Virus record (IMG/VR): IMGVR_UViG_3300017705_000602
DNA: 64,000 nt
Source: a virus
Taxonomy: Duplodnaviria > Heunggongvirae > Uroviricota > Caudoviricetes
Strand: one strand, 5' to 3'
Part shown: one piece after another, positions 18,452-46,797 of the stretch
Position numbering within the stretch: position 1 is the stretch's first letter
Layout: each line of letters opens with the position of its first letter
The notes under the pieces: generated by a model
What the model was told of the DNA's origin: nothing
What the model saw: only the letters and a program-made list of their open reading frames with translations
Databases searched by the model: none
Position numbers and translations under genes: made by a program

Positions 18452-18808
18452 ATGCGTCTGTGGCGTTGGGGGTATGATCAGTTTAGAACTGGTTATAGAA
18501 TATTCACAATTGCTTATATAAAGGCGCTTAGATGGGATATATATTTGTTTCATTATCCCGAAGGGTCGTTTATACCTAAGCATAAAGATCCTTCAAAGTA
18601 CGGCAAGCATTACCGTTTTAATATAACTCTTAAACGACCTGAACAGGGCGGCGAGTTTATTTGCAACAATGTAGTGTTTAGATGGTGGAGATTTTGTTTG
18701 TTTAGAGCAGATGCAAATTACCACCGCGTAACTCGAATTGAAAAAGGTAGCCGTTGGATACTAAGCTTCGGTTTTACATTTAAGCATGACAAAAGTTCAA
18801 ATCGGTAA
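18452..18808 (+). CDS. small 2OG-Fe(II) oxygenase-like protein (paralog of 4609..4941)
   Basis: FIPKHKDPSKYGKHYRFNITLK HxD...H pattern shared with the 4609 paralog. Confidence 0.5.
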   Translation: MRLWRWGYDQFRTGYRIFTIAYIKALRWDIYLFHYPEGSFIPKHKDPSKYGKHYRFNITLKRPEQGGEFICNNVVFRWWRFCLFRADANYHRVTRIEKGSRWILSFGFTFKHDKSSNR

Positions 18809-23172: not shown

Positions 23173-24128
23173 AGCGAGCAGTAATCGAAATTGCAGGAGG
23201 TTGCAATTACACCTGCGGAATGTGTCCTCAGAGCACAGGACGTGGCAAAGACTTTACCAAAAAGATGTCGGTATCTCATTTTGCTCAACTGCTCGACGAG
23301 ATTGTGGACAAGTATGGCAGCCCTCAGATTAATTTAGAAGGCTCAGGTGAGCCCACTATCAATCGAGATTTACCTTTGTATATACGAGAATGCACAAAGC
23401 GCAATCTTAAAAGTTTCATGTATACAAATGGTGCAAGGTTTAAAGGTAAACTGATGACCGATTCCATTGACGCCGGATTGTCTTTTGTTAGATTCAGTTG
23501 CATTGGCTACAATCGTGAGACTTATAAAAAATGGATGAGTCGTAACAACTTCGATTTGCTGATAAAAAATGCTATTGCTACACAGCAATACATACAGCAG
23601 ACTGAATCAAACTGCACAGTGAGCAGTTATCACCTAATACTAGACAACGCTAACATCGAGTACGAGATCGAGCAGTATCGGCGTAACTTTATTGAGCAAG
23701 TCGAATCAGTTGCGTATATCTGGAAAATGCACAACTGGAGCGGAAACATACAGCCAATATATCTGAGAGATACTTCCGATCGCAGAACATGCGGACGTCC
23801 ATTTGCACCCGAAATAACCATACGAGCCGGTGGCCTAGATGGTAAATACGGAGCAGTAACACCTTGTTGTCAAACTATGGGTCCACCGCACGAAGCCGAA
23901 AGCGTGCTAGGGCATACTTCTGTAAACACAATTGAAGAAATATTTACAGGAGAAAAATATGAGCAATTACGAAAAGCTCATAGACAACAAGACTTTGATA
24001 GTGTATCATATTGCAAAGATTGTGATTTCTTGTATGAAGACCCTGAGGTTCTAGTATGGAGTAACGATACTAGTGCAACAACAAATCACATGCTTGGAAC
24101 AAATTTTAATTTAGAAGATTACAAATAA
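23163..24128 (+). CDS. radical SAM enzyme with C-terminal SPASM/twitch-like Cys cluster
   Basis: N-terminal CNYTCGMC (Cx3Cx2C) in GGCNYTCGMCPQS; C-terminal Cys-rich region TCGRP...TPCCQTMG...SYCKDCDF. Confidence 0.7.
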   Translation: MQLERAVIEIAGGCNYTCGMCPQSTGRGKDFTKKMSVSHFAQLLDEIVDKYGSPQINLEGSGEPTINRDLPLYIRECTKRNLKSFMYTNGARFKGKLMTDSIDAGLSFVRFSCIGYNRETYKKWMSRNNFDLLIKNAIATQQYIQQTESNCTVSSYHLILDNANIEYEIEQYRRNFIEQVESVAYIWKMHNWSGNIQPIYLRDTSDRRTCGRPFAPEITIRAGGLDGKYGAVTPCCQTMGPPHEAESVLGHTSVNTIEEIFTGEKYEQLRKAHRQQDFDSVSYCKDCDFLYEDPEVLVWSNDTSATTNHMLGTNFNLEDYK

Positions 24129-24328: not shown

Positions 24329-24994
24329 ATGCGAATTGAACTGCTCGGAAATGATTATATTGACATACCCAACGATACCAGTGTAGGTGTCGGATTTAGC
24401 GGTGGTGTTGATTCTACTTTGTTATTGTACATAATGTTGCTATACTCGCCGCATACTGTATTTCCGCTTACTATAACAGTTAACAATCGTTATCATCGCC
24501 ATAAGCAAGTGGCATCGGAAGTTCTTGAACTGTGCTGTAATGAAACAGGCAACCACGAAGTTATACATTCGGCAATACATTGCAACGATATTGATTTAGA
24601 AAATGGCACTAACCCTACTGCATTAAAACAAAACTGGTTTTTAAAGTCTGGCATGATCAGCACTTTGTTTCTTGGTACTAACCAGTTACCACCAGCTGGT
24701 CATATACACACTGAAGACTTTCGACACAATCACACTGACGAGTACTATCGGCGAGAACCCGGTGTGTTAAAAGCTACTAGTACCCACGGTGGTGCATTTC
24801 AGTTGCCACTCATTAATTATGACAAACGACAAATCTGCGAGCTGTACAGAAAGTTTGGTATATCAGATGAAATATACAAGCGCACATGGTCTTGCTCGAC
24901 TATACTCAGTGACAAGGATTGGAATGTAAATAGACATTGTGGGAAATGCGGCCCTTGTCACGAACGTATTTTTGGGTTTGGAAAAATAGAATAG
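24329..24994 (+). CDS. QueC-like 7-cyano-7-deazaguanine synthase family PP-loop ATPase, paralog 2
   Basis: canonical PP-loop VGFSGGVDSTLLLY; C-terminus WSCSTILSD..HCGKCGPCHERIFGFG matches QueC zinc motif. Confidence 0.7.
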   Translation: MRIELLGNDYIDIPNDTSVGVGFSGGVDSTLLLYIMLLYSPHTVFPLTITVNNRYHRHKQVASEVLELCCNETGNHEVIHSAIHCNDIDLENGTNPTALKQNWFLKSGMISTLFLGTNQLPPAGHIHTEDFRHNHTDEYYRREPGVLKATSTHGGAFQLPLINYDKRQICELYRKFGISDEIYKRTWSCSTILSDKDWNVNRHCGKCGPCHERIFGFGKIE

Positions 24995-28143: not shown

Positions 28144-28502
28144 AAGGTGTTCACCCCGATCTAGTTGATGTTGCACATCGCGCAATCGAACTAACACCGT
28201 ATGACTTTGGTATTACCCAAGGCGTAAGAACAATAGAAGAACAAAGACGTTTTGTCGAAGAAGGCAAGTCTACTACAATGAACAGCAGGCACCTGATACA
28301 AGACGACGGATACAGCCATGCAATTGATATTGCAGTATATGTAGACGGTTCGATAACGTGGGAAGTGCCTTACTACAGAAAAGTTGTACAAGCATTTTTT
28401 ACTGCCGCTATTGAAAAGAATGTACAAATCAATTCGGGTGTGCTGTGGCGTACATTTGTCGACGGTCCGCACATTGAACTAAACTACAGGTACTATGAAT
28501 AA
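28104..28502 (+). CDS. peptidase M15-family L-alanyl-D-glutamate peptidase-type endolysin
   Basis: NSRHLIQDDGYSHAIDIAV (SxHxxGxAxD) and DGPHIEL second His motif. Confidence 0.65.
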   Translation: MGFRFSRRSEERLEGVHPDLVDVAHRAIELTPYDFGITQGVRTIEEQRRFVEEGKSTTMNSRHLIQDDGYSHAIDIAVYVDGSITWEVPYYRKVVQAFFTAAIEKNVQINSGVLWRTFVDGPHIELNYRYYE

Positions 28503-29103
28503 TATATACACCTGTAAGCTATTCGAGCCGCACGAAGCACAACGACTGTTAGACGATATTACATCGGAGTTTTACGGCAAATTTGTAAGATCAAGACTGT
28601 ACGACACATCTTCAGGCAACATGCATTTTAAAGAGATTGCCGATGCCCGAAGATCGTGGGAGCAAGTGTATCATAACCATACTCGGTTTGCTTGGATAAA
28701 AGCTAGACTAAACAATCATGTAAGAACTGCGCTTGATCAGTTCGGTCTTACTATGCCTGCTATACACTATCCGCAAGGTCTTCGATTTTTAAAATACGAC
28801 TCGGCAGAAACGGGCTTTCAGAATTGGCACACGGACAAGTCTAAACAATCGCGTATTCTTACTTGTGTTGTACAATTAACAGACCCTGACGAATATCAAG
28901 GTGCAAGACTCGAATTTCAATCTCCGATACTGTCGAGGCAGGTGCCAGTTCAGCAAGGCAGTTTAATTATATTTCCATCGGAGCAGATTCATCGTGTGTC
29001 TGAATGCATATCGGGAATTAGATACTCGTTGATTGTTTGGGCCGAGACAGAAGATACAGCATTACCTCCAGGGTACACAGATGACACTACTGAAAAGAAC
29101 TGA
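28495..29103 (+). CDS. 2OG-Fe(II) oxygenase, prolyl-4-hydroxylase-like
   Basis: HxD in FQNWHTDKS, distal His IHRVSE and 2OG-binding RYSL. Confidence 0.65.
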   Translation: MNNIYTCKLFEPHEAQRLLDDITSEFYGKFVRSRLYDTSSGNMHFKEIADARRSWEQVYHNHTRFAWIKARLNNHVRTALDQFGLTMPAIHYPQGLRFLKYDSAETGFQNWHTDKSKQSRILTCVVQLTDPDEYQGARLEFQSPILSRQVPVQQGSLIIFPSEQIHRVSECISGIRYSLIVWAETEDTALPPGYTDDTTEKN

Positions 29104-29611
29104 TTGGGAATTTCTAGCACCGCTTGCATTAAAAGAAGCAATGTCTATTATCAACAAGCACGGTGCGTTTAACGGGCAGATTGGACTTACACATCGTCCT
29201 GGAACACCCGAAGGCGATAAACTGATTGATGCAACAGGCTCGTTGTATGATTACGACTCGGGTCAGTTTGTTGCAAAGGAATCAGACTTTACTGAATTCA
29301 ATAGTGCTTTTGTAGGTACTTACTTGCACGAAATTTACAGCACTATCGGAAACATCGGTCGTATGAGAATCATGATCATGGATGGCCCTACTGCATACAC
29401 CATTCATCGCGATGTGACTACTCGTTACCACTTAGCTCTCAAAACCAATCCGTTTTGTTTTTTTGTGTTCCCTAACCAAAACGAACAAATACACATTCCG
29501 CAGGACAATAACATATACGAAGTTGACACACGAGAATATCACACGTTCTTGAATGGCACTAGAGCAACACGTATTCATTTAGTAATGGATAATTTGTTGT
29601 CGTATGAGTAA
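29081..29611 (+). CDS. cupin-type aspartyl/asparaginyl beta-hydroxylase-like protein
   Basis: TAYTIHRDVTTRYHLALKTNP resembles the AspH-family His-x-Asp...His core; start uncertain (29033 or 29081). Confidence 0.45.
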   Translation: MTLLKRTDWEFLAPLALKEAMSIINKHGAFNGQIGLTHRPGTPEGDKLIDATGSLYDYDSGQFVAKESDFTEFNSAFVGTYLHEIYSTIGNIGRMRIMIMDGPTAYTIHRDVTTRYHLALKTNPFCFFVFPNQNEQIHIPQDNNIYEVDTREYHTFLNGTRATRIHLVMDNLLSYE

Positions 29612-31489: not shown

Positions 31490-31525
31490 ATGCAATGGCA
31501 ATTATGCATAACAAAGGAAAATCGC

Positions 31526-32527
31526 ATGTCATCGAAAGAAATTACTCCAGGTCGCATTATAAAATGGATCGTGTGGGCAATACTAGCTATTATTGCTTTT
31601 AGTGCTCTAATGGGATCGTTTTATATTAACTCAGAATACGAGCGCACAGTTGAAACACGCTTAGGCGAAATCAACGGTGATGTAACCGGTCCTGGGTTAC
31701 AGTTTAAAGCACCGTTTATCGATTCTGCTCACACAGCAGACATTCGCATAGACGAAATCAACTACCCGGGCGAAGTAACTGCATCGTACGATGGTCAGAC
31801 AATCAACATTGATATTACTATTAACCACCAGATACTTGAAGCGTCTGTGCAAAAGTTATATTCGGACTTTGGTTCAAACTATAACTACAGCGATCGTATC
31901 TTGCGCAAGATGGCAATTGATCGTATTAAAGGACTGATCGGTACATACAAAATTGAAGAGTTCATGCCTAATCGTGAACAGATTAGACAAGAAGCACTAA
32001 CAGTTGTTAAAGCAGAAGCCAACAAGTACGGTGTTAACATACTGGACATTCAGTTATCGAACTTTGAATTTGACCCACGCTTTAAAACACGTTTACAAGA
32101 AGTTGCTGATGCAAGAGCGCGAGCGTCAAAAGAAGAACAGCGAGCACGTGAAGCCGGCTTTGCTGCCGAGAAGCGTATCGAAGTCGAACGTGGTGAAGCA
32201 GAATCTAAAAAGCTTGCTGCCGATGCAAACGCTCACAAAATTCGTGTAGAGTCGGAACAAAAAGCGGCAGCTATACAGCGCGAAGGTGAAGCACAAGCGG
32301 CATCTGAACTTGCTAAAGGTACTGCAAAAGCCGAAGCAATTAAAGCACAGCTTGAAGCACTTGAACGAGGCGGGCAGAATTTGGTTGAGTTAACCAAAGC
32401 CGAAGCAATGAAAAATTGGGACGGTGTATACAGCCCGGACACAGTTATCAGTTCAGGCGGTACAGGCCAGCCAGGTTTTATACCTTTCATGAACTACAAT
32501 GAACTGTTGAAGCCAAAGAAAAACTAA
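31526..32527 (+). CDS. SPFH/band-7 (prohibitin/HflKC-like) membrane protein
   Basis: N-terminal TM then band-7 core (GLQFKAPFIDS...) and long Ala/Glu/Lys-rich coiled coil; AAAGGAAAATCGCATG RBS. Confidence 0.7.
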   Translation: MSSKEITPGRIIKWIVWAILAIIAFSALMGSFYINSEYERTVETRLGEINGDVTGPGLQFKAPFIDSAHTADIRIDEINYPGEVTASYDGQTINIDITINHQILEASVQKLYSDFGSNYNYSDRILRKMAIDRIKGLIGTYKIEEFMPNREQIRQEALTVVKAEANKYGVNILDIQLSNFEFDPRFKTRLQEVADARARASKEEQRAREAGFAAEKRIEVERGEAESKKLAADANAHKIRVESEQKAAAIQREGEAQAASELAKGTAKAEAIKAQLEALERGGQNLVELTKAEAMKNWDGVYSPDTVISSGGTGQPGFIPFMNYNELLKPKKN

Positions 32528-34420: not shown

Positions 34421-35506
34421 GTGGAATTTATACTTGCTTTAATTGGGCCTGCCGCAGTTGCCGTATTTGCAAAACTGTACTTCAAACAGGAAATCAGCAA
34501 ACGTGAAACGCTAGCACAGATTGCAATCGGTATAGGATTCGGGTTTATGGTGTCTGTATTGATTGCAATGGGTCAGCTACATGATAACGAATATGTTACA
34601 GGCCAAGTGATCAACAAGCATCGCGACAACGACAGCTACGAAGAAAGCTACGATTGCAATTGTCGCACAGTAACATCGGGTTCCGGAGATAGCAAAACCA
34701 CTTCAACGGTGTGCGACACTTGTTGGAAAACAATCTACACAGTGGACTGGTATTTAAGTTCTACAGTTGGGCGCATCGCAATCAACAGCCGTGAATCTGA
34801 AAGCCAACAAGTGTGGATTGCACCCAATCCACAAGCCTGGATCGACGCTAAAATCGGCGAAGCATGTACTACAGCTCGATCGTACCAAAACTATATTTTA
34901 GCGTCACCGGACAGTTTGTTTAATTCGTCGGAGTATGGCAATAACGAATTTGCTGTGCCAGGGTATCCGCGCATGCATTCCATATACAAAATGAAACATG
35001 CACTCACAGTAGACGGAGCAATACCTAACTCGGCTGAATGGACAGAACAAATTCGAGAACATTTAAAAATTCGCAATGCTAATAGCAGTCCAAATGTGTT
35101 GTTTGTGTTTACTAAATCAACCGACAGAACTTTTAAATATGCGCTAGAGCGTAATTGGACAGGCGGCAAAAAGAATGACTTGATTGTTGTTATCGGCACA
35201 GCCAACTATCCAAACGCAAACTGGACAGAAGTTATAACACTTGGTAAGACTTCCGGCAACGAACTAACGGCAGTAAAAATAAGAGACATAGTCGAAGATC
35301 ATCATCTAGATCCACAAGTAACAGTTAAAAATGTGTTTAGCATGATTGACAAGCACTTTGATATGAAACCGATAAGCGACTTTGAATATCTCAAAGACGA
35401 ACAACAAATGACATTATGGCAAGCATTAGCAGTTGTATTTGCTTCGATAATTGTTAGTATTATAGTAAGTTATATATTTTCACGCAACGCTTTAAGGAGC
35501 AAATAA
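34421..35506 (+). CDS. membrane protein with N- and C-terminal TM helices (DUF2207-like partner of LemA, tentative)
   Basis: GTG start; two N-terminal TM helices, large soluble domain, C-terminal TM; directly upstream of LemA-like gene as in bacterial LemA/DUF2207 pairs. Confidence 0.5.
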   Translation: MEFILALIGPAAVAVFAKLYFKQEISKRETLAQIAIGIGFGFMVSVLIAMGQLHDNEYVTGQVINKHRDNDSYEESYDCNCRTVTSGSGDSKTTSTVCDTCWKTIYTVDWYLSSTVGRIAINSRESESQQVWIAPNPQAWIDAKIGEACTTARSYQNYILASPDSLFNSSEYGNNEFAVPGYPRMHSIYKMKHALTVDGAIPNSAEWTEQIREHLKIRNANSSPNVLFVFTKSTDRTFKYALERNWTGGKKNDLIVVIGTANYPNANWTEVITLGKTSGNELTAVKIRDIVEDHHLDPQVTVKNVFSMIDKHFDMKPISDFEYLKDEQQMTLWQALAVVFASIIVSIIVSYIFSRNALRSK

Positions 35507-35507
35507 C

Positions 35508-36050
35508 ATGAAACCATGGCACATCGTTTTACTGGTAATCGGGCTAATTGTAGTCGGGTTAGTAGGTTCTTTTATTAGTACATACAATTACGGAGTACGA
35601 GCAGAACAAGGCATCAAGTCCGCCTGGGAAAACAACGAAAACATTTTGGGTCAGTATTCACTCAAGGTAAAAGAAACTGCAAAAGTTTCTGACAAGTACA
35701 GTGGTGCAATTTCTCAATATGTAAGAGACACCATGACAGGTCGTTATGGCGAAAGTGGCTCGCAAGCACAAATGCAATGGATACAAGAAAACATTCCGGA
35801 TTTTGATGCAAGCATGTACAAACAAATACAGCAAATTATCGAAGCCGGACGTACCAAGTTCGAAAATGCTCAAACAGAACTAGTCGATCGCAAGCGTGCT
35901 TACGAAATTGAACTGAACAGTTTGTGGAGCGGTGCAATGCTTGGGTTAGCAGGTTATCCGAAAATCAACTTAGACGATTATAAAATTATAACATCCGAGC
36001 ATGCTAAAGAAACATTCGAATCCGGTGTTGACAAAGGTGTAGAATTTTAA
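35508..36050 (+). CDS. LemA-family protein
   Basis: N-terminal TM MKPWHIVLLVIGLIVVGLVGSF then helical domain of LemA-like size; AAGGAGC RBS. Confidence 0.5.
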   Translation: MKPWHIVLLVIGLIVVGLVGSFISTYNYGVRAEQGIKSAWENNENILGQYSLKVKETAKVSDKYSGAISQYVRDTMTGRYGESGSQAQMQWIQENIPDFDASMYKQIQQIIEAGRTKFENAQTELVDRKRAYEIELNSLWSGAMLGLAGYPKINLDDYKIITSEHAKETFESGVDKGVEF

Positions 36051-36140: not shown

Positions 36141-36764
36141 ATGAAAGTTTTACACAAGCAAGACATTTTTGATAGTAATCCATATTTAACTGAATCGGTA
36201 GCTGACGATTTTTACAACAACACGTTTGAATACTTTGATAAAGACGGGTTTGACCTAAACCATTTTGAAGCAGGTTTATACAAGCACAACAATGTATTAG
36301 TTCAGCCTTTGCTGAATCGTAATGCAAATCACTATAAATGGTTTGAGCATAAATTTACCGGAAAAGGCATACATTTAGACCATTCTTTGCTGATGTGTCG
36401 TAGAGCTTACTCAGATACATTAGCTGAGCAAATCCGCCATAAATCGCAGGAAAATCCACTGTTAAACAAGCTTTTAATGCTACGACCAAAGTGGGGCATA
36501 GACGTAAACATTGAGTTTGTGTTTGATGACGACACCATAATCGAAGTATTTCATCACGAGTCAGATTACTTTGAGTACGAAGAATACCTCAACAATAAGC
36601 ATAAACTTGAACAGTTTGTTGCGGACACAGATTTTGCAGATGCCGCCCACAATTTACTTCGAGACTCACACTTGTGGAGAAACATGTGCGGCGACGATCA
36701 GACCGACTACAAGGCTAGATACTTTGGGTTCAACCGTGCATATACTACACAAAAAGTTATTTGA
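36141..36764 (+). CDS. hypothetical protein
   Basis: 207-aa ORF with GGAAGGGTATATG RBS. Confidence 0.5.
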   Translation: MKVLHKQDIFDSNPYLTESVADDFYNNTFEYFDKDGFDLNHFEAGLYKHNNVLVQPLLNRNANHYKWFEHKFTGKGIHLDHSLLMCRRAYSDTLAEQIRHKSQENPLLNKLLMLRPKWGIDVNIEFVFDDDTIIEVFHHESDYFEYEEYLNNKHKLEQFVADTDFADAAHNLLRDSHLWRNMCGDDQTDYKARYFGFNRAYTTQKVI

Positions 36765-36820
36765 TAAAGCTGTTATCTGTGCTACAATAACATGTGATCA
36801 ACTATTATAAGGCGCACACT

Positions 36821-37834
36821 ATGTACCGTATCGGCTTTGCATGCAAATTTACGCATCACGACCAGAGTTTAAAAAAGAAGAAACTCGAAGAAATCGAACG
36901 TCCGTATCGTCCTCGCATAACCACAGCACGCTGGCTCGATCAGCAAGATCAGCATGTGGCTGAACAGCGACTTAAAGATTTGATTACTCACAACGTCGAA
37001 GCAACTGCGCGACTGGTTGCATGGGTCGGTCAGTACGAACGCGAGCTTCGTATGTTGCGTATTGGTAGCGACTTATTGCCCATGTACACACATCCAAAGT
37101 GGAAGAATTTCTACACCGACAACCCATCTTTTATGGCCGGCATACAAGAACAGTTTAGACGCATCGGCATTGTTGCTCGCGAAAAAGATGTGCGCCTTTC
37201 GTTTCATCCGGGTCAGTTTACTGTGCTTGCTAGCGACAGACCAGAAGTTGTTGAGAACTCAATTGAAGAATTCGAGTACCATGCAGACATGCTACGCTGG
37301 ATGGGGTACGGTCGTACATTCCAAGATGCCAAGTGCAACGTACACATCAGCGGCAAGCTAGGTCCACAAGGCATTATCGATATACTGCCGCGTCTCAGCG
37401 AAGTTGCTCGCAATGTGATCACAATCGAGAATGACGAAATGTCATACGGTCTTGATGCATCGCTTGAGCTAGCTGATCATCTAGCTCTTGTCATAGATTG
37501 CCATCATCACTGGGTACGCACAGGCGAATACTTACAGCCCGACGACGAGCGTGTTAAGGCAGTTATTGCGTCATGGCGCGGCAAGCGACCGACTATGCAC
37601 TATTCATTATCACGCGAGGACTTGCTGGTCGATCATTGCCGTGATACTAAACCCGACATGGATAAATTACTCGAGCAAGGTTACAAAAAACAAAAGTTGC
37701 GTGCTCACTCCGACTACATGTGGAATCGAGAATGCAACAAGTGGGCAGCCGGCTTCTTAGGTAACTTCGATATCATGGTCGAGTCCAAGGCTAAGAATTT
37801 GGCATCGTTTAAGTTGTACAACGAGATTAAATGA
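36821..37834 (+). CDS. UV DNA damage endonuclease (UvdE/UVDE family)
   Basis: MYRIGFACKF, RMLRIGSDLLP, ITIENDE, IDCHHH match UVDE conserved blocks. Confidence 0.75.
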   Translation: MYRIGFACKFTHHDQSLKKKKLEEIERPYRPRITTARWLDQQDQHVAEQRLKDLITHNVEATARLVAWVGQYERELRMLRIGSDLLPMYTHPKWKNFYTDNPSFMAGIQEQFRRIGIVAREKDVRLSFHPGQFTVLASDRPEVVENSIEEFEYHADMLRWMGYGRTFQDAKCNVHISGKLGPQGIIDILPRLSEVARNVITIENDEMSYGLDASLELADHLALVIDCHHHWVRTGEYLQPDDERVKAVIASWRGKRPTMHYSLSREDLLVDHCRDTKPDMDKLLEQGYKKQKLRAHSDYMWNRECNKWAAGFLGNFDIMVESKAKNLASFKLYNEIK

Positions 37835-38688
37835 TTACAGAAAAACACTTTTGGGTCTCCGACTTTAACCGTGCGTCGAATTATGCAAAGCAATATCCTG
37901 ACATTAGCAAGATATTCGATTACCCAAGCGCAACATGGTTAACCGGTAGATCCAAATACAAAAAAATTATCGATAGATCTATTAAGCGTACTTTACGTAG
38001 AGCCGCTCCTTATTTGCCTACGTTTGTGCTTTATGCAATACCAAATAGAGATCTGGGGCATCATTCTGCAGGCGGTCTTGCATCTGACGAAGAATACTTT
38101 CAGTTTGTTAAACGTATTGCACAAGGCATCGGGAATAAAAGTCCTGTGGTGATCGTTGAACCGGATGCATTACCACATTCAACATTGCTTGACAACAAGC
38201 AACAAAAGCACAGAATTTCGCTTATTAAAAAAGCTGTAAAAATTCTAGCTAACAATTGTGATGCAATTGTTTACATTGACATTGGTCATTCCAATTGGTT
38301 ATCACCATCGGATTCGTACGACTTGTTAATGCAAGCAGGAATTGCACAAGCAAGAGGATTTTCAGTTAACGTGTCCAATTATCAATCAACGCACGATTCG
38401 TTGTTGTGGGGCACCAGAATTGCAAGCGGGTTCGAAGACGAAAAATACTTTATTGTTGACACCAGCCGAAACGGACAAGGTCCGCTTGACGACTGCTGGT
38501 GCAATCCGCCAGGCAGAGGCTTAGGTGAAACACCAACGCATGAAACACCTAGTCGCTTTTGTGATGCGTACATGTGGATTAAAGTTCCGGGTGAGTCAGA
38601 CGGCAAATGCAACGGTGGACCTCATGCAGGGAAATTTTGGCCTGAGCAAGCAGTTGAACTTGTGCAGAACTCTCCGTTTATTCGATAA
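37831..38688 (+). CDS. glycoside hydrolase family 6-like protein (cellulase/cellobiohydrolase fold), no signal peptide
   Basis: GH6 blocks VLYAIPNRDLGHHSAGG, VIVEPDAL, IDIGHSNWL, NVSNY, VDTSRNG, CDAYMWIKVPGESDG; ATGA-coupled to uvdE. Confidence 0.7.
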   Translation: MITEKHFWVSDFNRASNYAKQYPDISKIFDYPSATWLTGRSKYKKIIDRSIKRTLRRAAPYLPTFVLYAIPNRDLGHHSAGGLASDEEYFQFVKRIAQGIGNKSPVVIVEPDALPHSTLLDNKQQKHRISLIKKAVKILANNCDAIVYIDIGHSNWLSPSDSYDLLMQAGIAQARGFSVNVSNYQSTHDSLLWGTRIASGFEDEKYFIVDTSRNGQGPLDDCWCNPPGRGLGETPTHETPSRFCDAYMWIKVPGESDGKCNGGPHAGKFWPEQAVELVQNSPFIR

Positions 38689-40313: not shown

Positions 40314-41036
40314 ATGCAAGTCGGCGATACTAGGTCGTTGATTTTTGACCTTGACGGTACTTTGTGCGAAAGCACAAAATGTTTGCTCCCCGAAATGCAA
40401 CACATGCTAAAGTTGTTATCTCAGGATTATGATATCTGGGTAACAACCGGAACATCGCATCAAAAGCTGTTAACGCAAATTCCAGCTGATGTATTGTCCT
40501 GTTTAACTGGTGTGTATTGCAGTTTAGGAACCGAGTACTACAACAACGGACAGCTGGTGTCAAGATTGGATGCTGAGTTTTCACAAAGTCTCCTACTTGA
40601 ACTCCAAGCTGTGTTTGAAGCATGCGAGTTTGCACACAAACACGAGTGCGCAATAACGTATAGGAATGCCATGATAAACTTCTCGGTGTTAACTCCGGGT
40701 TCATCGGACACATTGAGAAAACAGTTTGCAACGTGGGACCACGAAACCAACTTTAGGAATCGTATTGTGATGCATTTAAAAAACATGTATCCGCAGTACA
40801 ACTTTGCGGCAGGCGGCATGGTCAGCATTGATATTACACAGACCGGAGTTGACAAATCTGTTATTGTTGATAACGAAAAGTTAAAAACGGACGTGATATT
40901 CTTTGGTGATAAAGCCGAACCGTTGGGTAATGATTATCCGGTTGCTCAAGCAATAGTTGAGCGCAAGATAGGCAAGTACTACTGTGTTGAATCTCCTGAG
41001 CATACATTAAGTTTACTCAAAAAAATACGCGCCTAG
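40314..41036 (+). CDS. eukaryotic-type phosphomannomutase (HAD superfamily, PMM family)
   Basis: DxDGT motif LIFDLDGTL; YRNAMINFSVLTPGSS, VSIDITQTGVDKS and IFFGDKAEPLGNDYP align with PMM blocks FRNGMLNVSPIGRS / ISFDVFPEGWDK / IHFFGNETSPGGNDF. Confidence 0.75.
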   Translation: MQVGDTRSLIFDLDGTLCESTKCLLPEMQHMLKLLSQDYDIWVTTGTSHQKLLTQIPADVLSCLTGVYCSLGTEYYNNGQLVSRLDAEFSQSLLLELQAVFEACEFAHKHECAITYRNAMINFSVLTPGSSDTLRKQFATWDHETNFRNRIVMHLKNMYPQYNFAAGGMVSIDITQTGVDKSVIVDNEKLKTDVIFFGDKAEPLGNDYPVAQAIVERKIGKYYCVESPEHTLSLLKKIRA

Positions 41037-41071: not shown

Positions 41072-41701
41072 TTAAGCGTTTGCGTCTTCTGGAGACTCAA
41101 TTGTAACAGTTGGTGCAGTAGTGTAACCTGTACCGCCTGTGTCAACAGTGATTGCAGTTACGGCACCGCCACTAACTGTAGCAGTAGCAGTTGCACCGGT
41201 TCCGTTGCCATCAATAGTAACAGTTGGTACGCCAATATAACCTTCACCAGCCACATCTACTGTGATTGCATCGACTGCGCCAGTATCAATTGTGGCTGTA
41301 GCGGTAGCAGTTACAAACGATACGTTAGCATCGTCGATTACATCGGCTTGCCCGGCTTCACTAGCCGCGTCAGCACTCCATGAATACGATGAATACTCTG
41401 TTGCAGAATCAAACACTGAAACTCGATACTGAGTAAGCTTGTAAACAGGTTGTGCAGAACCATTGAATGGTGTTGCTAGTATAAATGCTTCACCTTCTGC
41501 TAGGTCTCCCGCAGTATCTTTGTTTACTAAGAAAACATCGCCGATTGTGCCGTTAATGTTTACTTTGTATTTGCGAGTACCTGTTTGTTCAGTTATAAAG
41601 CCTTCGGCCACTGCTTCGCCAGGTAATTTTGCTGTAATTTTTAATTGTGAACCTACGCTAAGTGGATCCCCGAAAAACTTTTGCTTGATCGGTCTTCCCA
41701 T
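41072..41701 (-). CDS. repeat-containing putative structural protein (minus strand)
   Basis: 209 aa; tandem repeats G-A-V-x-A-I-T-V-D...G-Y-x-x-x-P-T-V-T-I; Gly/Thr/Ala/Val-rich. Confidence 0.55.
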
Positions 41702-42147: not shown

Positions 42148-44577
42148 ATGAAGCTAAAGCATACCACTGCCGCAGTTGAAACAAACAACGTAACCGAAGG
42201 CAACACGTTCGGCATTAAAAGCTCACCAAAAACATTTGCAATATTGTCAAGCGGTTTGTACTCAGACAAGATTCTTGCAGTGGTACGTGAACTGTCATGT
42301 AATGCATACGATTCCCACACTGAACGCAACAATGCAATAGACGCCGGCAAAGCATCTAAATTTACAGCACCGCGTGACAAAAACATAGTTGTACATTTTC
42401 CAACTGCGTTTGACCCGTTTTTTAGTGTTCGTGATTTTGGCATTGGCTTAACGCCCGAAGAAGTTGAAAATGTTTACACTGTTTACTTTGAGTCAACCAA
42501 ACAAGATTCAAACGATTATGTTGGCGCACTAGGGCTTGGCTCTAAGTCTCCATTTTCGTATGCAAAATCATTTAACGTGATTGCAACCAAGCACGGGCAT
42601 CGTGTAATTTACACCATGTTCATAAACTCAAACGGCATTCCACAACCTGCTATTCTTGACCAAGGTCCAGTTGAAAGTTTTTACATGGACGACGAAGAAA
42701 TTCCCGAAGAAGAGTTTTATGATGGTGTTGAAGTTAAAGTGCCAGCCGAAGCAAATGACGCTTATTCTTTTTGCGATGCAGCCGAAAGCATTTACCGATA
42801 CTTTGCGCAGTGTCCCGAGTTAAAAAATTACACAGGCAACACAATCAAGTATTACAAAGACAATGTTGAAGAATTTGTTAGCGGAATATACATTGCTGAT
42901 CGAGGGTATAACAGAAATCAATATGCTGTTCAGGGCAATGTTGCTTATCCAATTGCACTCAAGGAAAATGACTTTAAACGTGCAGTCAAAGATATCGAAA
43001 AGTTCGATGATCAAGACCGTCCGAGCGAAACACTGTCCGAAGAGACCATCGACGAACTGTGGAATTTTTATCGTAATGTGTTTGTCAACTACATGTTTTA
43101 TGTGCATTTTGAAATAGGCGAGCTTGATGTTGCCGCTAGCCGCGAAGAACTGAGCTATGATGCTAGTACCATCATGGCAATAATTGTACAAATAAAGCGA
43201 ATATACGATTGCATCGAAAGCAAGTTTGACGAACACATGGAAAAGCTCGAAAGCAAATGGGACAAGGCACACGAGCTGTATCGCATTGGCAGTTATCATC
43301 ACACATACGATATGTCAGCAACCGACAAGCTGTTTCGAAACACGAAGTCGTATAAACCATACATAAAAGGTAATCATATACCGCAAATACAGTTGTCAGC
43401 CAACGACAGTCATGTACAATATAATCGCGATTATGTTACATTCGAGATACCAAAAGATGCCGATTTTAACATACGTGTGTGCGGAAGGTCTTCGTTCAAG
43501 CGATTCTCGCGTGTGTGGCACAACGAAACCAACCCTATGAAGATTTCAGGGCTGGTACAAGACAATCGTGTAGAAGCAATGAGCAACTTAGTACAGATCA
43601 TAGTAAATGATACTGCGCGAGGCGGTGCAACATTTGCTAAAGCGTACTTTAGTGATATATCTACAAAAAATCAGTGCGTGTTCATTGAGCCTGACAAGTT
43701 AGGCAATACTGCTGAGATATCAGCATTTGTTGACAAAATAAATGCTAAGATGGACAACCCAGGTCTTAGCATTGTGTACTTGTCCAAAGTAAAAGAAGAA
43801 CACCCTGATCTTACCAAGCGCACAGTAAGACCGAAATCCAATATCGGGTACTATGAAATTGGCGATGGATTTTCTGCAGTGTATGCAATTCGTAATTCGA
43901 TACCGGAGCGGTTCGAAACCGACACAATTGTATATATTCCGTTTAAGCAACAAAAGCCAACTTCGGATAACAACGACTTTTCAAATTTAAGTTCGTTAGG
44001 AGACCGCCCAGATTCGTTCGCAAACATACATCAGGTTACGCTGGCATTGCAGAAAATTGCCCATTACACAGGCGAAAAAATGCCAACTGTAGTCGGGCTC
44101 AATCAAAACATGCTTAGACAAGTCGGCGATTACGATAATTGGATACCGGCTAACGAATATATCGAACAGCAATTTCACAAGCAGTTTGGTAAGCAGTCAC
44201 AGCGAGACAAGATTGTCAAGCAGTTAACTGGCAAGCTGAGAACAAACGCAATTGTCGATAATGTTGAATGGCCTTTTTGTACTGACACTACAAGAAAAAT
44301 AGCCGAGCAGTTATCACAAACACCCGAGCTTGCTGAAGTTTGTGACATAATTAACTTACTAATCAGCGGCAACGTAACTACTACACATCTCGAAGACTTA
44401 TACTCTATGTTTTACGAAGTCCCTGGTGTTGATTATGATGCCGAATGGTTTAATAGTAAATTTTCAATACTGTCACTGGTCGAAAATGAACGATCGTGGT
44501 GCAAAATTGATAACGAAGACGTGACCAAGGTAGTAAACTACATTAAAACATGCACACTAAACGGAGAAAGCAAATGA
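42148..44577 (+). CDS. rIIA: rIIA protector-from-prophage-exclusion protein (GHKL ATPase-like N-terminus)
   Basis: N-terminal AILSSGLYSDKILAVVRELSCNAYDS matches T4 rIIA FQILSENLYKDKHGSIVREVVANAVDAS; 809 aa; followed by rIIB. Confidence 0.8.
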   Translation: MKLKHTTAAVETNNVTEGNTFGIKSSPKTFAILSSGLYSDKILAVVRELSCNAYDSHTERNNAIDAGKASKFTAPRDKNIVVHFPTAFDPFFSVRDFGIGLTPEEVENVYTVYFESTKQDSNDYVGALGLGSKSPFSYAKSFNVIATKHGHRVIYTMFINSNGIPQPAILDQGPVESFYMDDEEIPEEEFYDGVEVKVPAEANDAYSFCDAAESIYRYFAQCPELKNYTGNTIKYYKDNVEEFVSGIYIADRGYNRNQYAVQGNVAYPIALKENDFKRAVKDIEKFDDQDRPSETLSEETIDELWNFYRNVFVNYMFYVHFEIGELDVAASREELSYDASTIMAIIVQIKRIYDCIESKFDEHMEKLESKWDKAHELYRIGSYHHTYDMSATDKLFRNTKSYKPYIKGNHIPQIQLSANDSHVQYNRDYVTFEIPKDADFNIRVCGRSSFKRFSRVWHNETNPMKISGLVQDNRVEAMSNLVQIIVNDTARGGATFAKAYFSDISTKNQCVFIEPDKLGNTAEISAFVDKINAKMDNPGLSIVYLSKVKEEHPDLTKRTVRPKSNIGYYEIGDGFSAVYAIRNSIPERFETDTIVYIPFKQQKPTSDNNDFSNLSSLGDRPDSFANIHQVTLALQKIAHYTGEKMPTVVGLNQNMLRQVGDYDNWIPANEYIEQQFHKQFGKQSQRDKIVKQLTGKLRTNAIVDNVEWPFCTDTTRKIAEQLSQTPELAEVCDIINLLISGNVTTTHLEDLYSMFYEVPGVDYDAEWFNSKFSILSLVENERSWCKIDNEDVTKVVNYIKTCTLNGESK

Positions 44578-45629
44578 GCTTACCATACATAGTTCAAGAT
44601 GATGGAATAACAGTCTTTGTTGACAAAAAGCCACATCATGTAAAATCAAGCAGTAAGAATTACACCAAGCTAAAACAAGCTTTAAAAAACAAAGAATGGG
44701 ACAAAGTCGAAAGTCTAGTGTCGTACGGTACTGCAATCAAGACATTCTCTCAAGGCAAAATGAAACTTGATCGCGGCGTAGTCACATACAACAACAAAGA
44801 GTTGCCGACTGAGCTTGCCAAGCGCATTATCAAAATGATCGACGAAGAAATGGACCTTGAGCCTTTGATCAAGTTTATTGAGCGATTGCACATGAACCCG
44901 AGTTTTAATTCGGTTCAGCAAACATACGCTTTTCTTGAAACTAACATGCTGCCTATCACTGACGAAGGGTACATACTAGCTTACAAAGTGGTAAAATTTG
45001 CCAACCAAAACAGCGACGAGCACGGATTCAAGCGCGGTGATTTGGTAGATTGTTACACAGGAACCGTTCGCAACAACATCGGCGACGTTGTTGAAATGGA
45101 TCGAAATCAAGTCGACGATGATCCTAATCGTTTGTGTTCGTTTGGTCTACATGGTGGCAGCGAAGGCTATTACAACTCGTTAAGACAAAGCCCTAACAAT
45201 GTCATGTTAGTGATCAAGATCGATCCAGTCGATATGGTAGCAGTACCCAAGTATCACCACGAAAGCAAGTTCCGATGCTGTAAGTACGAAGTTATTTCGT
45301 ACTTTGGTAACGATGGCGACAAAAAGCTCGAAGATGAGATTGTAGTAAACGAAAAGCAAGGTGCAAAGTCTTTTGATTCGAAAGTTGATACTCGTGCTCA
45401 AGTGCAACAAGCACTTGACATTGCAAAGGGCATGATCGACTCGTACAAACGACAGCGTCTAAGCAAGCAATCTGGTCACTGGGCATCTGTTGCAGGTCTA
45501 GTAGGATACTTGCAAGGTGCAGAACTTGGATCAGTTGACATCAACGATATTGCAAGAAAAATCACAGACGAGCTAGGCTTTATGTCAGCAGAAGTCAAAG
45601 ACAACAACTTGTATATAACTCGTGCATGA
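44574..45629 (+). CDS. rIIB: rIIB protein
   Basis: DEGYILAYKVVK, RNQVDDDPNRLCSFGLH, FRCCKYEVI match T4 rIIB blocks; ATGA overlap with rIIA. Confidence 0.8.
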   Translation: MSLPYIVQDDGITVFVDKKPHHVKSSSKNYTKLKQALKNKEWDKVESLVSYGTAIKTFSQGKMKLDRGVVTYNNKELPTELAKRIIKMIDEEMDLEPLIKFIERLHMNPSFNSVQQTYAFLETNMLPITDEGYILAYKVVKFANQNSDEHGFKRGDLVDCYTGTVRNNIGDVVEMDRNQVDDDPNRLCSFGLHGGSEGYYNSLRQSPNNVMLVIKIDPVDMVAVPKYHHESKFRCCKYEVISYFGNDGDKKLEDEIVVNEKQGAKSFDSKVDTRAQVQQALDIAKGMIDSYKRQRLSKQSGHWASVAGLVGYLQGAELGSVDINDIARKITDELGFMSAEVKDNNLYITRA

Positions 45630-46008: not shown

Positions 46009-46797
46009 ATGAAAGTAGGAATCATAGGACACGGATATGTTGGCAAATCAATCAGTTTGCTATATTGCATACACGAACAAATCATAGTAGACGTCGATAC
46101 AGCGCACACAGTTAACGACATTGACACTTGTGATGTAGTGTTTGTCTGCTTACCCACTCCCACTAAAAACAGCGTGTGCGACTATACAGTGCTTTTAAAC
46201 GAGGTATCTAAGCTGGTACATCTAGATGTACCTGTTGTTATCAAGTCAACTGTTACACCTGACTTCTTTGAACATGAGTCAGTAAAGCAAATAAAGCACC
46301 TGGTGTACTATCCAGAGTTTTTGCGCGAAGCACATTACGAATACGATGCACAGAATCCAACATACATGATACTTGCAGGCAGCAAACAAGATTGTCTTGC
46401 CATGAAGCACATAATCAGCACGGCAGTTTTGCATACAGTGCCGGTGTGTTATCAAACAGAAAGTTACCGAGCCGCATCATTGGCAAAATATGCTATTAAT
46501 TCGTTTCTTGCAACTAAAGTAGTGTTCATGAATGAACTAGAAAGTCTAGCAGGAGCAGATTTTGAACAAGTTGCGCACATGATGTCACTGGACTGTAGAA
46601 TCGGAAACACTCACTTGGATGTGCCAGGCCCAGATGGCCAGTATGGGTTCGGTGGTTCGTGTTTTCCAAAAGACACAAAAGCGTTGACATCATACGCCGA
46701 AGAAAGTAACATAGCGTTATCAGTACTAAAACAGGCATGCGAAACAAATGACAGCTATCGGCACAAAAATCGAATTCGACCTAACCACAAAAACTGA
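46009..46797 (+). CDS. UDP-glucose/GDP-mannose 6-dehydrogenase-family protein lacking the C-terminal UDP-binding domain
   Basis: GxGxxG in MKVGIIGHGYVG; catalytic-Cys block FGGSCFPKDTKAL; 262 aa covers NAD-binding and central domains only. Confidence 0.65.
   Translation: MKVGIIGHGYVGKSISLLYCIHEQIIVDVDTAHTVNDIDTCDVVFVCLPTPTKNSVCDYTVLLNEVSKLVHLDVPVVIKSTVTPDFFEHESVKQIKHLVYYPEFLREAHYEYDAQNPTYMILAGSKQDCLAMKHIISTAVLHTVPVCYQTESYRAASLAKYAINSFLATKVVFMNELESLAGADFEQVAHMMSLDCRIGNTHLDVPGPDGQYGFGGSCFPKDTKALTSYAEESNIALSVLKQACETNDSYRHKNRIRPNHKN

What the first reader, a model, noticed from the sequence alone, without database searches (positions are those of the whole stretch)
36821..38688. UvdE UV-damage endonuclease translationally coupled to a GH6-family glycoside hydrolase
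The UVDE blocks are clear. T4 uses the unrelated DenV, so UvdE here is a distinct repair solution. Its stop overlaps the start of a cytoplasmic-looking GH6 protein with most GH6 signature blocks (RD-L-G, EPD, DxGH, NVSNY, DTSRNG, W-K-PGESDG). GH6 enzymes are beta-1,4-glucanases. A phage copy suggests degradation of host cellulose/EPS, or a repurposed fold. Note the catalytic-acid position reads RDL rather than RDC.
Basis: partly seen in the sequence, partly recalled or inferred. Interest (0 to 1): 0.6.

Follow-up and report, generated by a model that had tools for sequence, protein, structure and literature searches.

The report
Phage UV-repair nuclease plus leaderless cellulase
An uncultured marine jumbo phage carries an ordinary UV-damage repair nuclease followed by an intact cellulase-type enzyme from a virus-only branch that has no secretion signal; both genes are real, but their overlap is routine phage gene packing, not a functional link.

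Summary
ORF 36821-37834 is a UvdE UV-damage endonuclease (Pfam E 3e-45) with every His/Asp/Glu metal ligand of Thermus UVDE. ORF 37831-38688 is a GH6 glycoside hydrolase (Pfam E 5e-57). Its AlphaFold model matches M. tuberculosis endoglucanase Cel6 at TM 0.88. The two genes overlap by ATGA.

The window is an uncultured marine jumbo myophage, with a terminase 64% identical to Pseudomonas phage PA5oct.

The GH6 keeps all catalytic and sugar-subsite residues. The missing Cys is half of a disulfide whose partner is also missing.

The protein belongs to a monophyletic, virus-only clade (at least 193 IMG/VR contigs). None of 121 members has a leader peptide or that disulfide. Nearly all of the 80 closest cellular GH6 have both.

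The UvdE-GH6 pairing holds only in the closest relatives. Elsewhere the upstream partner is usually peptide deformylase, and 4-nt overlaps are common in this genome.

UvdE in phages is already known (118 isolate records). The GH6 is most likely an active endo-beta-1,4-glucanase made in the cytoplasm. Its biological target is unresolved. Interest is modest.

The parts
36761..36788 (+). Sigma-70-like promoter with extended -10 (TTGATA-16 nt-TACAAT, TG at -15/-14), 33 nt upstream of the UvdE start codon
   Evidence: Consensus scan, 10 of 12 matches with TG. The -35 box, the TGnTAtAAT box and the AAGG Shine-Dalgarno are conserved in relatives L019 and L015 while the spacer differs. Promoter function is inferred, not shown; promoter-like hits in the region as a whole are not above chance.
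36821..37834 (+). UvdE-family UV-damage endonuclease, 337 aa
   Evidence: Pfam PF03851 E 3.2e-45. PHROG 8420 'endonuclease' E 3.6e-83. Thermus thermophilus UVDE 2J6V E 1.8e-20, with equivalents of H101, H143, E175, D200, H203, H231, H244 and E269 all conserved. The ATG at 36821 agrees with the 337-aa orthologues in L015 and L019.
37831..37834 (+). ATGA start/stop overlap between UvdE and GH6
   Evidence: Read directly from the sequence. The same 4-nt overlap occurs in L015, L016, L017 and L019. A weak GAG(A) Shine-Dalgarno lies at -8 to -5. Ten of 81 same-strand neighbour pairs in the window have the same 4-nt overlap.
37831..38688 (+). Leaderless single-domain GH6 endo-beta-1,4-glucanase-type protein, 285 aa, member of a virus-specific clade
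   Evidence: Pfam PF01341 E 4.8e-57. M. tuberculosis Cel6 1UP0 E 3.4e-58 and T. fusca Cel6A 1TML E 2.2e-43. AlphaFold2 pLDDT 89.5, pTM 0.90. Foldseek top hit 1UOZ, TM 0.88. Catalytic and subsite residues are invariant in 121 homologues.

Best explanation
These are two independent, intact enzymes in one compact transcription unit of an uncultured marine jumbo myophage. The unit is probably host-RNA-polymerase (early) transcribed. Gene 1 is a UvdE endonuclease. It nicks DNA 5' of UV photoproducts, so that host or phage enzymes can finish repairing the sun-damaged phage genome. Gene 2 is a catalytically competent GH6 inverting endo-beta-1,4-glucanase consisting of the catalytic domain only. It belongs to a virus-specific GH6 clade that has lost the signal peptide and one of the two family disulfides, so it is made and folded in the host cytoplasm. 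It most likely cuts a host-made beta-1,4-glucan (cellulose-like exopolysaccharide or envelope glycan). It would reach that substrate when the envelope is breached at lysis, which would free progeny from the matrix. The ATGA overlap reflects the tight gene packing typical of this genome. It may equalise translation of the two genes, but it does not indicate a shared function. Shown here: family membership, residue conservation, fold, absence of a leader, clade structure and variable neighbours. Inferred: enzymatic activity, early expression, the substrate and the timing of action.
For: The family assignments are very strong.

GH6 residues: all residues that do the chemistry and bind sugar in T. 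fusca Cel6A are present. The mapping is W36=W41, Y68=Y73, D74=D79, D112=D117 (acid), D150=D156, H153=H159, W156=W162, N183=N190, W223=W231, K251=K259, E255=E263 and D257=D265. All are invariant across 121 homologues, which argues for purifying selection on activity.

GH6 fold: the model is confident and superposes on endoglucanase-type GH6 enzymes, with TM 0.88 to Mtb Cel6 and 0.85 to Tf Cel6A. It lacks the extra loops of cellobiohydrolases (TMt 0.5-0.65).

Viral versus cellular GH6: 0 of 121 viral proteins have a hydrophobic leader or the C80/C125 cysteines. Among the 80 closest cellular GH6, 74 have a leader and 79 and 78 have those cysteines. The viral clade is monophyletic in 100 of 100 NJ bootstraps. 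The best cellular relatives are only 37-50% identical over the best aligned segment, or at most 47% over the trimmed full-length alignment.

No functional link: the UvdE-GH6 adjacency is restricted to the nearest relatives. Other lineages pair GH6 with peptide deformylase or other genes. Overlaps are generic in this genome.

Expression and context: a conserved extended -10 promoter lies upstream of UvdE. Sugar-nucleotide genes lie nearby, namely PMM and UDP-glucose dehydrogenase, and the phage encodes a PEP-CTERM protein, which points to an EPS-producing host.

Precedents: M. tuberculosis Cel6 is a solved endoglucanase whose structures contain cello-oligosaccharides. Streptomyces phage Gilgamesh gp72 is a CBM4_9+GH6 protein in a tail module.

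UvdE: the metal ligands are intact.
Against: No activity or substrate was tested. A leaderless enzyme cannot reach extracellular cellulose before lysis, so the benefit to the phage is indirect. The probable early promoter and the non-structural neighbourhood do not fit a lysis-time role especially well. The wider viral clade sits in contigs resembling pelagimyophage or Melnitz-type marine myophages, and their likely hosts are not known cellulose producers (my background knowledge, not tested). The second Cys pair (C224-C260) remains invariant, which could mean the protein works in an oxidising compartment. The host of this phage is unknown.
Confidence: 0.6

Rival explanations
1. The GH6 acts inside the infected cell as an auxiliary metabolic or host-takeover enzyme. 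It would cleave cytoplasm-facing beta-1,4-glucosyl intermediates (nascent glucan, or undecaprenyl-PP-linked cellobiosyl repeat units of EPS or O-antigen) or cellodextrins. The effect would be to shut down host envelope-glycan synthesis or to redirect sugar into the phage's own sugar-nucleotide pathway.
For: The clade has no leader and has lost one disulfide. A probable early promoter is present. Neighbours in two lineages are glycan or sugar-nucleotide genes. In this window they are PMM and UDP-glucose dehydrogenase. In other marine phage contigs they are a GT2-like protein, a cytidylyltransferase-like protein and a sulfotransferase.
Against: No cytoplasmic GH6 substrate is known. The multi-subsite aromatic platform (W36, W156, W223) is that of enzymes acting on long glucan chains. 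The gene neighbourhood is weak evidence in mosaic phage genomes.
Confidence: 0.15
2. The GH6 is a virion-carried depolymerase that digests a cellulose-like surface layer during adsorption, as proposed for tail-module glycosidases.
For: Streptomyces phage Gilgamesh encodes a CBM4_9+GH6 protein directly after its minor tail proteins. The ORF two genes upstream (35508-36050) matches a PHROG annotated as 'virion structural protein'.
Against: The protein is a 285-aa catalytic domain with no virion-attachment or carbohydrate-binding module. It lies among DNA-repair, rII and metabolic genes, about 13 kb from the tail sheath. In 84 related loci its neighbours are metabolic or DNA genes, not tail genes.
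Confidence: 0.1
3. The GH6 fold has been recruited as an endolysin-like peptidoglycan glycosidase. It would be leaderless, accumulate in the cytoplasm, and be released to the wall by a holin.
For: Being leaderless and phage-encoded is the canonical endolysin pattern. Peptidoglycan is also a beta-1,4-linked glycan. GH19 chitinase-like endolysins are a precedent for such recruitment (my background knowledge).
Against: All glucan-binding and catalytic residues are identical to bona fide cellulases. No holin or spanin adjacency was seen in any of 84 loci. No peptidoglycan-binding domain is present. No GH6 with muramidase activity is known (my background knowledge).
Confidence: 0.07
4. UvdE and GH6 form a functional pair, for example with the GH6-like protein acting on glycosylated DNA or a repair intermediate, which would explain the overlap.
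For: The ATGA overlap and synteny are conserved in the closest relatives. UvdE also lies 6-7 kb from GH6 in three more distant contigs, L025, L169 and L174.
Against: The adjacency is absent in all other loci examined, where the upstream partner varies. Isolate phages with UvdE have no GH6. The active site is that of a polysaccharide hydrolase.
Confidence: 0.03

Closest known systems
Mycobacterium tuberculosis endoglucanase Cel6 / CelA1 (Rv0062; PDB 1UP0, 1UOZ)
   Same: Closest solved relative: phmmer E 3.4e-58 and Foldseek TM 0.88 at 37% identity. It has the same length of catalytic domain, the same open-cleft endoglucanase type, the same catalytic Asp residues and aromatic subsites, and the same second Cys pair.
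   Different: The mycobacterial enzyme is cellular and secreted (my background knowledge). It keeps the first-disulfide cysteines (RDCG...ADCL), whereas the phage protein has Leu at both positions and no leader.
Thermobifida fusca Cel6A (endoglucanase E2; PDB 1TML, 2BOD)
   Same: It is the mechanistic reference for GH6 endoglucanases. Equivalents of D79, D117, D156, D265, Y73, H159, W41, W162, W231, K259 and E263 are all present. Foldseek TM is 0.85.
   Different: Tf Cel6A carries a CBM2 and linker and is secreted (my background knowledge). It has both disulfides. Identity to the phage protein is about 30%.
Streptomyces phage Gilgamesh gp72 'glycoside hydrolase'
   Same: It is the only cultured-phage GH6 in the isolate collection: 35% identity over 76% of the query.
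   Different: It is 444 aa with an N-terminal CBM_4_9 domain. It is encoded at the end of the tail module of an actinophage. It lies outside the marine viral clade.
Uncultured marine myophage GH6 clade (IMG/VR and TARA contigs, e.g. L025, L107-L186)
   Same: 50-57% identical to the query. All are about 280 aa, leaderless, lack the first disulfide and carry the virus-specific Cys244. They form one clade with the query.
   Different: The upstream neighbour is usually peptide deformylase rather than UvdE. The genomes are of a different type, pelagimyophage/Melnitz-like with S21 and PDF.
UvdE / Uve1 UV-damage endonucleases (T. thermophilus UVDE 2J6V; phage family PHROG 8420)
   Same: Pfam and PHROG membership, and all His/Asp/Glu metal ligands conserved. 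Homologues occur in 118 isolate phage records, mainly Erwinia, Dickeya, Aeromonas and Vibrio jumbo phages.
   Different: Identity to any isolate phage UvdE is at most 48%. The nearest relatives are marine metagenomic, at 58-95%. The carboxylated Lys229 of Thermus UVDE is Thr here, and that position is also not conserved in Sulfolobus UVDE. An insertion of about 28 aa precedes the last two ligands.
T4 endonuclease V (DenV)
   Same: Functional analogue: a phage-encoded first step of UV-photoproduct repair (my background knowledge).
   Different: Unrelated fold and chemistry. DenV is a pyrimidine-dimer glycosylase/AP lyase, whereas UvdE is a metal-dependent TIM-barrel endonuclease (my background knowledge).

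Membership tests
Glycoside hydrolase family 6 (Pfam PF01341) | Significant match to the family profile over the whole catalytic domain | tested here: met
   E 4.8e-57, 194.5 bits against a cutoff of 27, profile positions 13-300 of 305.
Glycoside hydrolase family 6 (Pfam PF01341) | Catalytic acid Asp in the E-P-D motif (TfCel6A D117 / TrCel6A D221) | tested here: met
   D112 in VVIVEPDALP. It matches the family signature 2 pattern, which I recalled from memory and tested by regex. It is invariant in 121 viral and 80 cellular sequences.
Glycoside hydrolase family 6 (Pfam PF01341) | Auxiliary and base-candidate Asp residues (TfD79 in R-D, TfD156 in D-x-G-H, TfD265 in E-[SA]-D-G) and the distorting Tyr (TfY73) | tested here: met
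   D74, D150, D257 and Y68 are all present and invariant.
Glycoside hydrolase family 6 (Pfam PF01341) | Signature 1, including the Cys after R-D (first family disulfide) | tested here: not met
   VLYAIPNRDLGHHSAGG fits the pattern except for Cys to Leu. The disulfide partner is also Leu. This is a structural feature of secreted members, not a catalytic one, and it is absent in all 121 viral-clade proteins.
Glycoside hydrolase family 6 (Pfam PF01341) | Distorted alpha/beta-barrel GH6 fold with an open cleft (endoglucanase type) | tested here: met
   AlphaFold2 pLDDT 89.5. The top 48 Foldseek PDB hits are all GH6 structures or GH6-derived scaffolds, and the best are endoglucanases at TM 0.84-0.88.
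Glycoside hydrolase family 6 (Pfam PF01341) | Inverting hydrolysis of beta-1,4-glucosidic bonds | not testable with these tools
   Requires an enzyme assay.
UvdE UV-damage endonuclease (Pfam PF03851) | Significant match to the family profile | tested here: met
   E 3.2e-45, 155 bits against a cutoff of 24. PHROG 8420 E 3.6e-83.
UvdE UV-damage endonuclease (Pfam PF03851) | Metal-binding His/Asp/Glu ligands of the TIM-barrel active site (Tth H101, H143, E175, D200, H203, H231, H244, E269) | tested here: met
   All are aligned to identical residues. The numbering offset was checked against the K229L, K229R and E175A mutant chains. The ligand list itself comes from my memory of the Thermus UVDE structure papers.
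UvdE UV-damage endonuclease (Pfam PF03851) | Incision 5' of CPD and 6-4 photoproducts | not testable with these tools
   Requires a nicking assay or a UV-survival experiment.
Phage endolysin (functional class) | Peptidoglycan-cleaving catalytic family and/or wall-binding domain, and linkage to a holin or spanin | tested here: not met
   Only a GH6 domain is present. No lysis-gene adjacency was seen in 84 related loci. Activity was not tested.
Virion-associated depolymerase (functional class) | Fusion to or adjacency with tail fibre, spike or baseplate genes | tested here: not met
   The protein is a standalone 285-aa domain among repair and metabolic genes. Contrast Gilgamesh gp72. The virion proteome is not testable here.

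The most novel reading that the evidence does not exclude
The virus-specific, leaderless GH6 clade that lacks disulfide 1 has a target other than extracellular cellulose. It would work from inside the infected cell, in one of two ways. It could dismantle cytoplasm-facing or lipid-linked beta-1,4-glucosyl intermediates of host envelope or EPS synthesis, as a host-takeover or superinfection-related function. Alternatively, it could act as a new class of holin-dependent wall or envelope glycosidase. Either would be the first non-secreted function for family GH6, and it would explain why abundant open-ocean myophages keep a 'cellulase'.
Probability: 0.15. Interest if true: 0.65.

Novelty: new member of a known kind. 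Interest (0 to 1): 0.3.

Why it matters
UvdE adds little. UV repair genes of this family are already annotated in many jumbo phages, although it makes sense for a surface-ocean virus.

The GH6 is more useful. Family GH6 is known from secreted bacterial and fungal cellulases. Here it appears as a tight, virus-only clade (at least 193 IMG/VR contigs, about 2,400 database proteins above threshold including cellular GH6). That clade has uniformly lost the secretion signal and one disulfide while keeping every catalytic residue. PHROGs v4 has no matching family, and no paper that my full-text searches returned discusses such a clade.

If the enzyme is active, marine phages release or use a beta-1,4-glucanase on a large scale. 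That bears on how phages cope with host exopolysaccharide and on the turnover of marine glucans. It also offers a naturally cytoplasm-foldable GH6 scaffold for enzyme engineering.

The biological target remains unknown, so the finding is a lead and not a discovery.

Tried and rejected
- DNA-level search of the region against isolate phages gave no match, so the context had to come from protein searches.
- Looking for UvdE next to GH6 in IMG/VR loci with tblastn gave nothing in L001-L014. This argues against a conserved module.
- Cluster-member look-up for names or accessions of marine homologues gave no informative names.
- Literature searches covered GH6 or cellulase in phages, pelagimyophages and marine virus-encoded GH6. 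Only generic lists of viral auxiliary metabolic genes mention GH6 (PMC8725595). The global-ocean AMG paper and the pelagimyophage paper do not mention it in their main text. One of these searches was too broad to be useful.
- Host or lineage assignment of the wider clade through a conserved neighbour protein and a DNA ligase gave only weak hits, to Melnitz (OM43) phages, cyanophages and SPO1-like phages. The hosts remain unknown.
- The first NJ-bootstrap script timed out. It was redone on a subsample with a faster distance routine.
- The first promoter pattern search used the wrong spacer range and missed the site. It was corrected.
- The PROSITE-style signatures, recalled from memory, proved too strict to be a useful clade discriminator. 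They match only a minority even of cellular GH6.
- I considered and rejected that the GH6 is a decayed or repurposed pseudo-enzyme, because all functional residues are invariant.
- I considered and rejected that the short length means truncation. 285 aa equals the full catalytic domain of endoglucanase-type GH6, for example T. fusca E2cd at 286 aa.
Full report
**What is in the sequence**

- ORF 36821-37834 (+, 337 aa) matches Pfam UvdE at E 3.2e-45.
- ORF 37831-38688 (+, 285 aa) matches Pfam Glyco_hydro_6 at E 4.8e-57, over profile positions 13-300 of 305.
- The UvdE stop and the GH6 start share the tetranucleotide ATGA at 37831-37834.

**Which genome this is**

The window is a tailed phage.
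- It encodes a T4-type large terminase (60101-61663), a tail sheath (51670-54273), rIIA- and rIIB-like proteins, and 23 tRNA genes.
- The terminase is 63.8% identical to that of Pseudomonas jumbo phage PA5oct and its relatives.
- There is no nucleotide-level match to any isolate phage.
- The closest relatives are marine metagenomic contigs of 219-332 kb (TARA and other ocean assemblies). They share the whole local gene order.
- So this is an uncultured marine jumbo myophage.

**UvdE**

- Besides Pfam, the protein matches PHROG 8420 at E 3.6e-83 and the solved Thermus thermophilus UVDE at E 1.8e-20.
- I read the alignment using the K229L, K229R and E175A mutant chains to fix the numbering. The equivalents of H101, H143, E175, D200, H203, H231, H244 and E269 are all identical. 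The ligand list is from my memory of the structure papers.
- The carboxylated Lys229 of the Thermus enzyme is Thr here. That position is not conserved in the Sulfolobus enzyme either.
- The protein therefore looks like a functional UV-damage endonuclease.
- It is not a new idea for phages. 118 isolate phage records encode a homologue, mostly Erwinia, Dickeya, Aeromonas and Vibrio jumbo phages, and many are annotated as such.

**GH6: family, residues and fold**

- The closest solved proteins are M. tuberculosis endoglucanase Cel6 (E 3.4e-58) and T. fusca Cel6A/E2 (E 2.2e-43).
- From the printed alignment, the functional residues of Tf Cel6A map one-to-one:
  - W36 = W41, Y68 = Y73, D74 = D79
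  - D112 = D117 (the catalytic acid, in EPD)
  - D150 = D156, H153 = H159, W156 = W162
  - S182/N183 = S189/N190, W223 = W231
  - K251 = K259, E255 = E263, D257 = D265
- The roles of these residues are established knowledge for Tf Cel6A and T. reesei Cel6A, which I recalled and did not test.
The Asp of 'RDL' is the conserved auxiliary Asp. The catalytic acid is the Asp of EPD. The residue that differs is the Cys of disulfide C80-C125, and its partner is also replaced (L75, L119).
- An AlphaFold2 model built on 42 homologues is confident (pLDDT 89.5, pTM 0.90).
- The model superposes best on endoglucanase-type GH6 structures (TM 0.88 to 1UOZ, 0.85 to 1TML). It covers only about 60% of the longer tunnel-forming cellobiohydrolases.
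- The 285 aa are thus a complete endoglucanase catalytic domain with no leader and no binding module.

**A virus-specific clade**

- A search of 5.8 billion proteins returned 2,390 hits. Four are 79-87% identical and come from the sister jumbo phages. More than a hundred proteins of about 280 aa, 49-57% identical, come from marine metagenomes.
- At least 193 IMG/VR viral contigs encode a relative.
- Across the query plus 120 homologues, every catalytic and subsite residue is invariant. None has a hydrophobic N-terminal stretch. None has either Cys of the first disulfide, where V/I/L and L appear instead. A new Cys (C244) is invariant.
- The 80 closest GH6 genes from 185,579 species-representative genomes are Actinobacteria, Polyangia/Myxococcota and CPR bacteria. 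Their best aligned segments are 37-50% identical to the query, and none exceeds 47% over the trimmed full-length alignment.
- Of those 80, 79 and 78 carry the two cysteines. 74 have a hydrophobic leader with a median 75-residue N-terminal extension. Only 2 have Cys at position 244.
- The viral sequences form one clade in 100 of 100 neighbour-joining bootstraps.
- In a library clustered at 50% identity, the whole marine clade collapses to one or two representatives among 3,265 GH6 clusters.
- PHROGs v4 has no family that matches it.
- Only one cultured phage in the isolate collection has a GH6: Streptomyces phage Gilgamesh gp72. That protein has a different architecture (CBM_4_9 + GH6) and sits at the end of a tail module.

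**Is the coupling meaningful?**

- The ATGA overlap and the UvdE-GH6 order are conserved in the closest relatives: L015-L017 and L019. In the truncated contigs L018, L020 and L021 the cut upstream ORF likewise ends 4 nt into GH6.
- In 84 related viral loci, the gene immediately upstream of GH6 varies. It is peptide deformylase in 42 and a glutaredoxin-like protein in 10 (that label comes from reading the sequence, not from a domain search). Other genes fill the remainder.
- In those loci the GH6 start again commonly overlaps the preceding stop, by 1, 4, 8, 11 or 14 nt.
- UvdE lies within 8 kb of GH6 only in L025, L169 and L174, where it is 6-7 kb away.
- Isolate phages that carry UvdE have no GH6.
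- Within this window, 29 of 81 same-strand neighbour pairs overlap, 10 of them by exactly 4 nt.
- The overlap is therefore the normal packing style of this genome. It may couple translation, but it says nothing about shared function.
- A sigma-70-like promoter with an extended -10 lies 33 nt upstream of UvdE (36761-36788). Its boxes are conserved in two relatives whose spacers have diverged.
- No terminator-like site separates the two genes on the coding strand; the scan's only hit inside the pair is a weak one on the opposite strand near 36900.
- I infer that the pair forms one unit transcribed by host polymerase, probably early. This is not shown.

**How it most likely works**

- Shown here: an intact GH6 endoglucanase active site under strong purifying selection, in a protein with no export signal.
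- Inferred: it is an active inverting beta-1,4-glucanase that folds in the cytoplasm. The coordinated loss of the leader and of one disulfide fits this.
- The most economical role is degradation of a host-made beta-1,4-glucan matrix once the envelope opens at lysis.
- Circumstantial support comes from nearby sugar-nucleotide genes (PMM 40314-41036, UDP-glucose dehydrogenase-like 46009-46797). The phage also encodes a secreted protein with a textbook PEP-CTERM sorting signal (14920-15654). To my knowledge, that signal is tied to exosortase/EPS systems.
- Several facts weaken this reading: the early-looking promoter, the metabolic rather than lysis or tail neighbourhood, the retained second Cys pair, and the occurrence of the clade in pelagimyophage/Melnitz-like contigs, whose likely hosts are not known cellulose producers.
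- The rival readings (intracellular action on glycan intermediates, virion depolymerase, endolysin-like use) remain open and are ranked in the rival section.
- A functional UvdE-GH6 module and a dead, repurposed fold are both effectively excluded.

**Comparison with what is known, and novelty**

- By every testable criterion the protein is a member of GH6 and of the endoglucanase structural type.
- The only signature feature not met is the first-disulfide Cys, which is structural rather than catalytic.
- UvdE is an ordinary member of a family already annotated in phages.
- What is not in the literature I could search is the existence of a large, virus-only, leaderless GH6 clade in marine myophages. 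Metagenome surveys only list GH6 among viral auxiliary genes (PMC8725595). The pelagimyophage comparative paper does not mention it in its main text (PMC7029224).
- I therefore file the finding as a new member of a known kind, with a modest lead attached.

**Verdict**

- The headline claim, UvdE translationally coupled to GH6, describes routine phage gene packing.
- The GH6 is worth an enzyme assay because of the clade-wide loss of secretion features. Without a substrate or a host, interest is moderate to low.

Noticed in passing
window 14920-15654 (+): A 244-aa ORF has a classic signal peptide (MKFKNILLGTVIALGFSSVANA) and a C-terminal PEP-CTERM sorting signal (VPEP, a hydrophobic helix, then RRRKK). 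Pfam PF07589 matches at E 2.7e-5, above its cutoff. A phage-encoded exosortase substrate is unusual, and it implies a host with an exosortase/EPS system.
   Followed up: partly
window 2913-33837 (+): 23 tRNA genes, all on the + strand, are interspersed with small ORFs. They include three tRNA-Met(CAT), two Ser, two Leu, two Gly and two Lys. This is a large tRNA island typical of jumbo phages.
   Followed up: no
window 18786-19415, 24329-24994 and 23163-24128 (+): Two paralogous QueC-like PP-loop ATPases and a radical SAM/SPASM protein are present. This could be a 7-deazaguanine-type or other nucleotide or peptide modification pathway.
   Followed up: no
window 10090-11160 (+): A glutamate-5-kinase-like protein (AA_kinase + PUA domains, E 4e-32) sits in the tRNA-rich region. 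This is an unusual auxiliary gene for a phage.
   Followed up: no
window 40314-41036 and 46009-46797 (+): A phosphomannomutase-type HAD protein and a UDP-glucose/GDP-mannose dehydrogenase-like protein flank the rIIA/rIIB pair (42148-45629). The dehydrogenase-like protein matches only positions 73-295 of 382 of its PHROG profile. These sugar-nucleotide genes lie within 8 kb of the GH6.
   Followed up: partly
window 28495-29103, 29081-29611 and 31490-32527 (+): A 2OG-Fe(II) oxygenase, an Asp/Asn beta-hydroxylase-like protein and an SPFH/Band-7 protein are present. Homologues of the hydroxylase-like gene also lie near GH6 in the pelagimyophage-like viral contigs.
   Followed up: partly
window 41072-41701 (-): This is one of the few likely minus-strand genes in this region. 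Its C-terminal half consists of GxGY...PTVTI-type repeats that hit many virion, baseplate and tail-fibre PHROGs (best E 7e-14).
   Followed up: no
window 34421-36050 (+): The two genes upstream of the pair are a 361-aa membrane-anchored protein (PHROG 2087, unknown function) and a 180-aa protein with an N-terminal transmembrane helix. The 180-aa protein matches PHROG 1383, annotated 'virion structural protein' (E 3e-59). Both are syntenic in the sister phages.
   Followed up: no
loci L001-L013, L025 and L107-L175 (IMG/VR and ENA marine viral contigs): In a different marine myophage lineage, GH6 is immediately preceded and overlapped by peptide deformylase (42 of 84 loci). Its other neighbours include a GT2-like protein, a cytidylyltransferase-like protein, a sulfotransferase, an Rv2179c-like exonuclease and a SprT-like protein.
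   Followed up: partly
GH6 residues 182 and 244 (window 38374-38376 and 38560-38562): There are virus-clade-specific cysteines. C244 is invariant in 121 viral proteins but is V/A/I in 76 of 80 cellular ones. The active-site Ser (TfS189) is Cys in 95 of 121 viral proteins, though it is Ser in this phage. Their significance is unknown.
   Followed up: no
locus L187 5362-6696 (Streptomyces phage Gilgamesh gp72): The only cultured-phage GH6 is a CBM_4_9 + GH6 protein placed right after the minor tail proteins and before a small membrane protein. It may be a virion depolymerase for the cellulose-like hyphal-tip glycan of Streptomyces, or part of the lysis cassette.
   Followed up: partly
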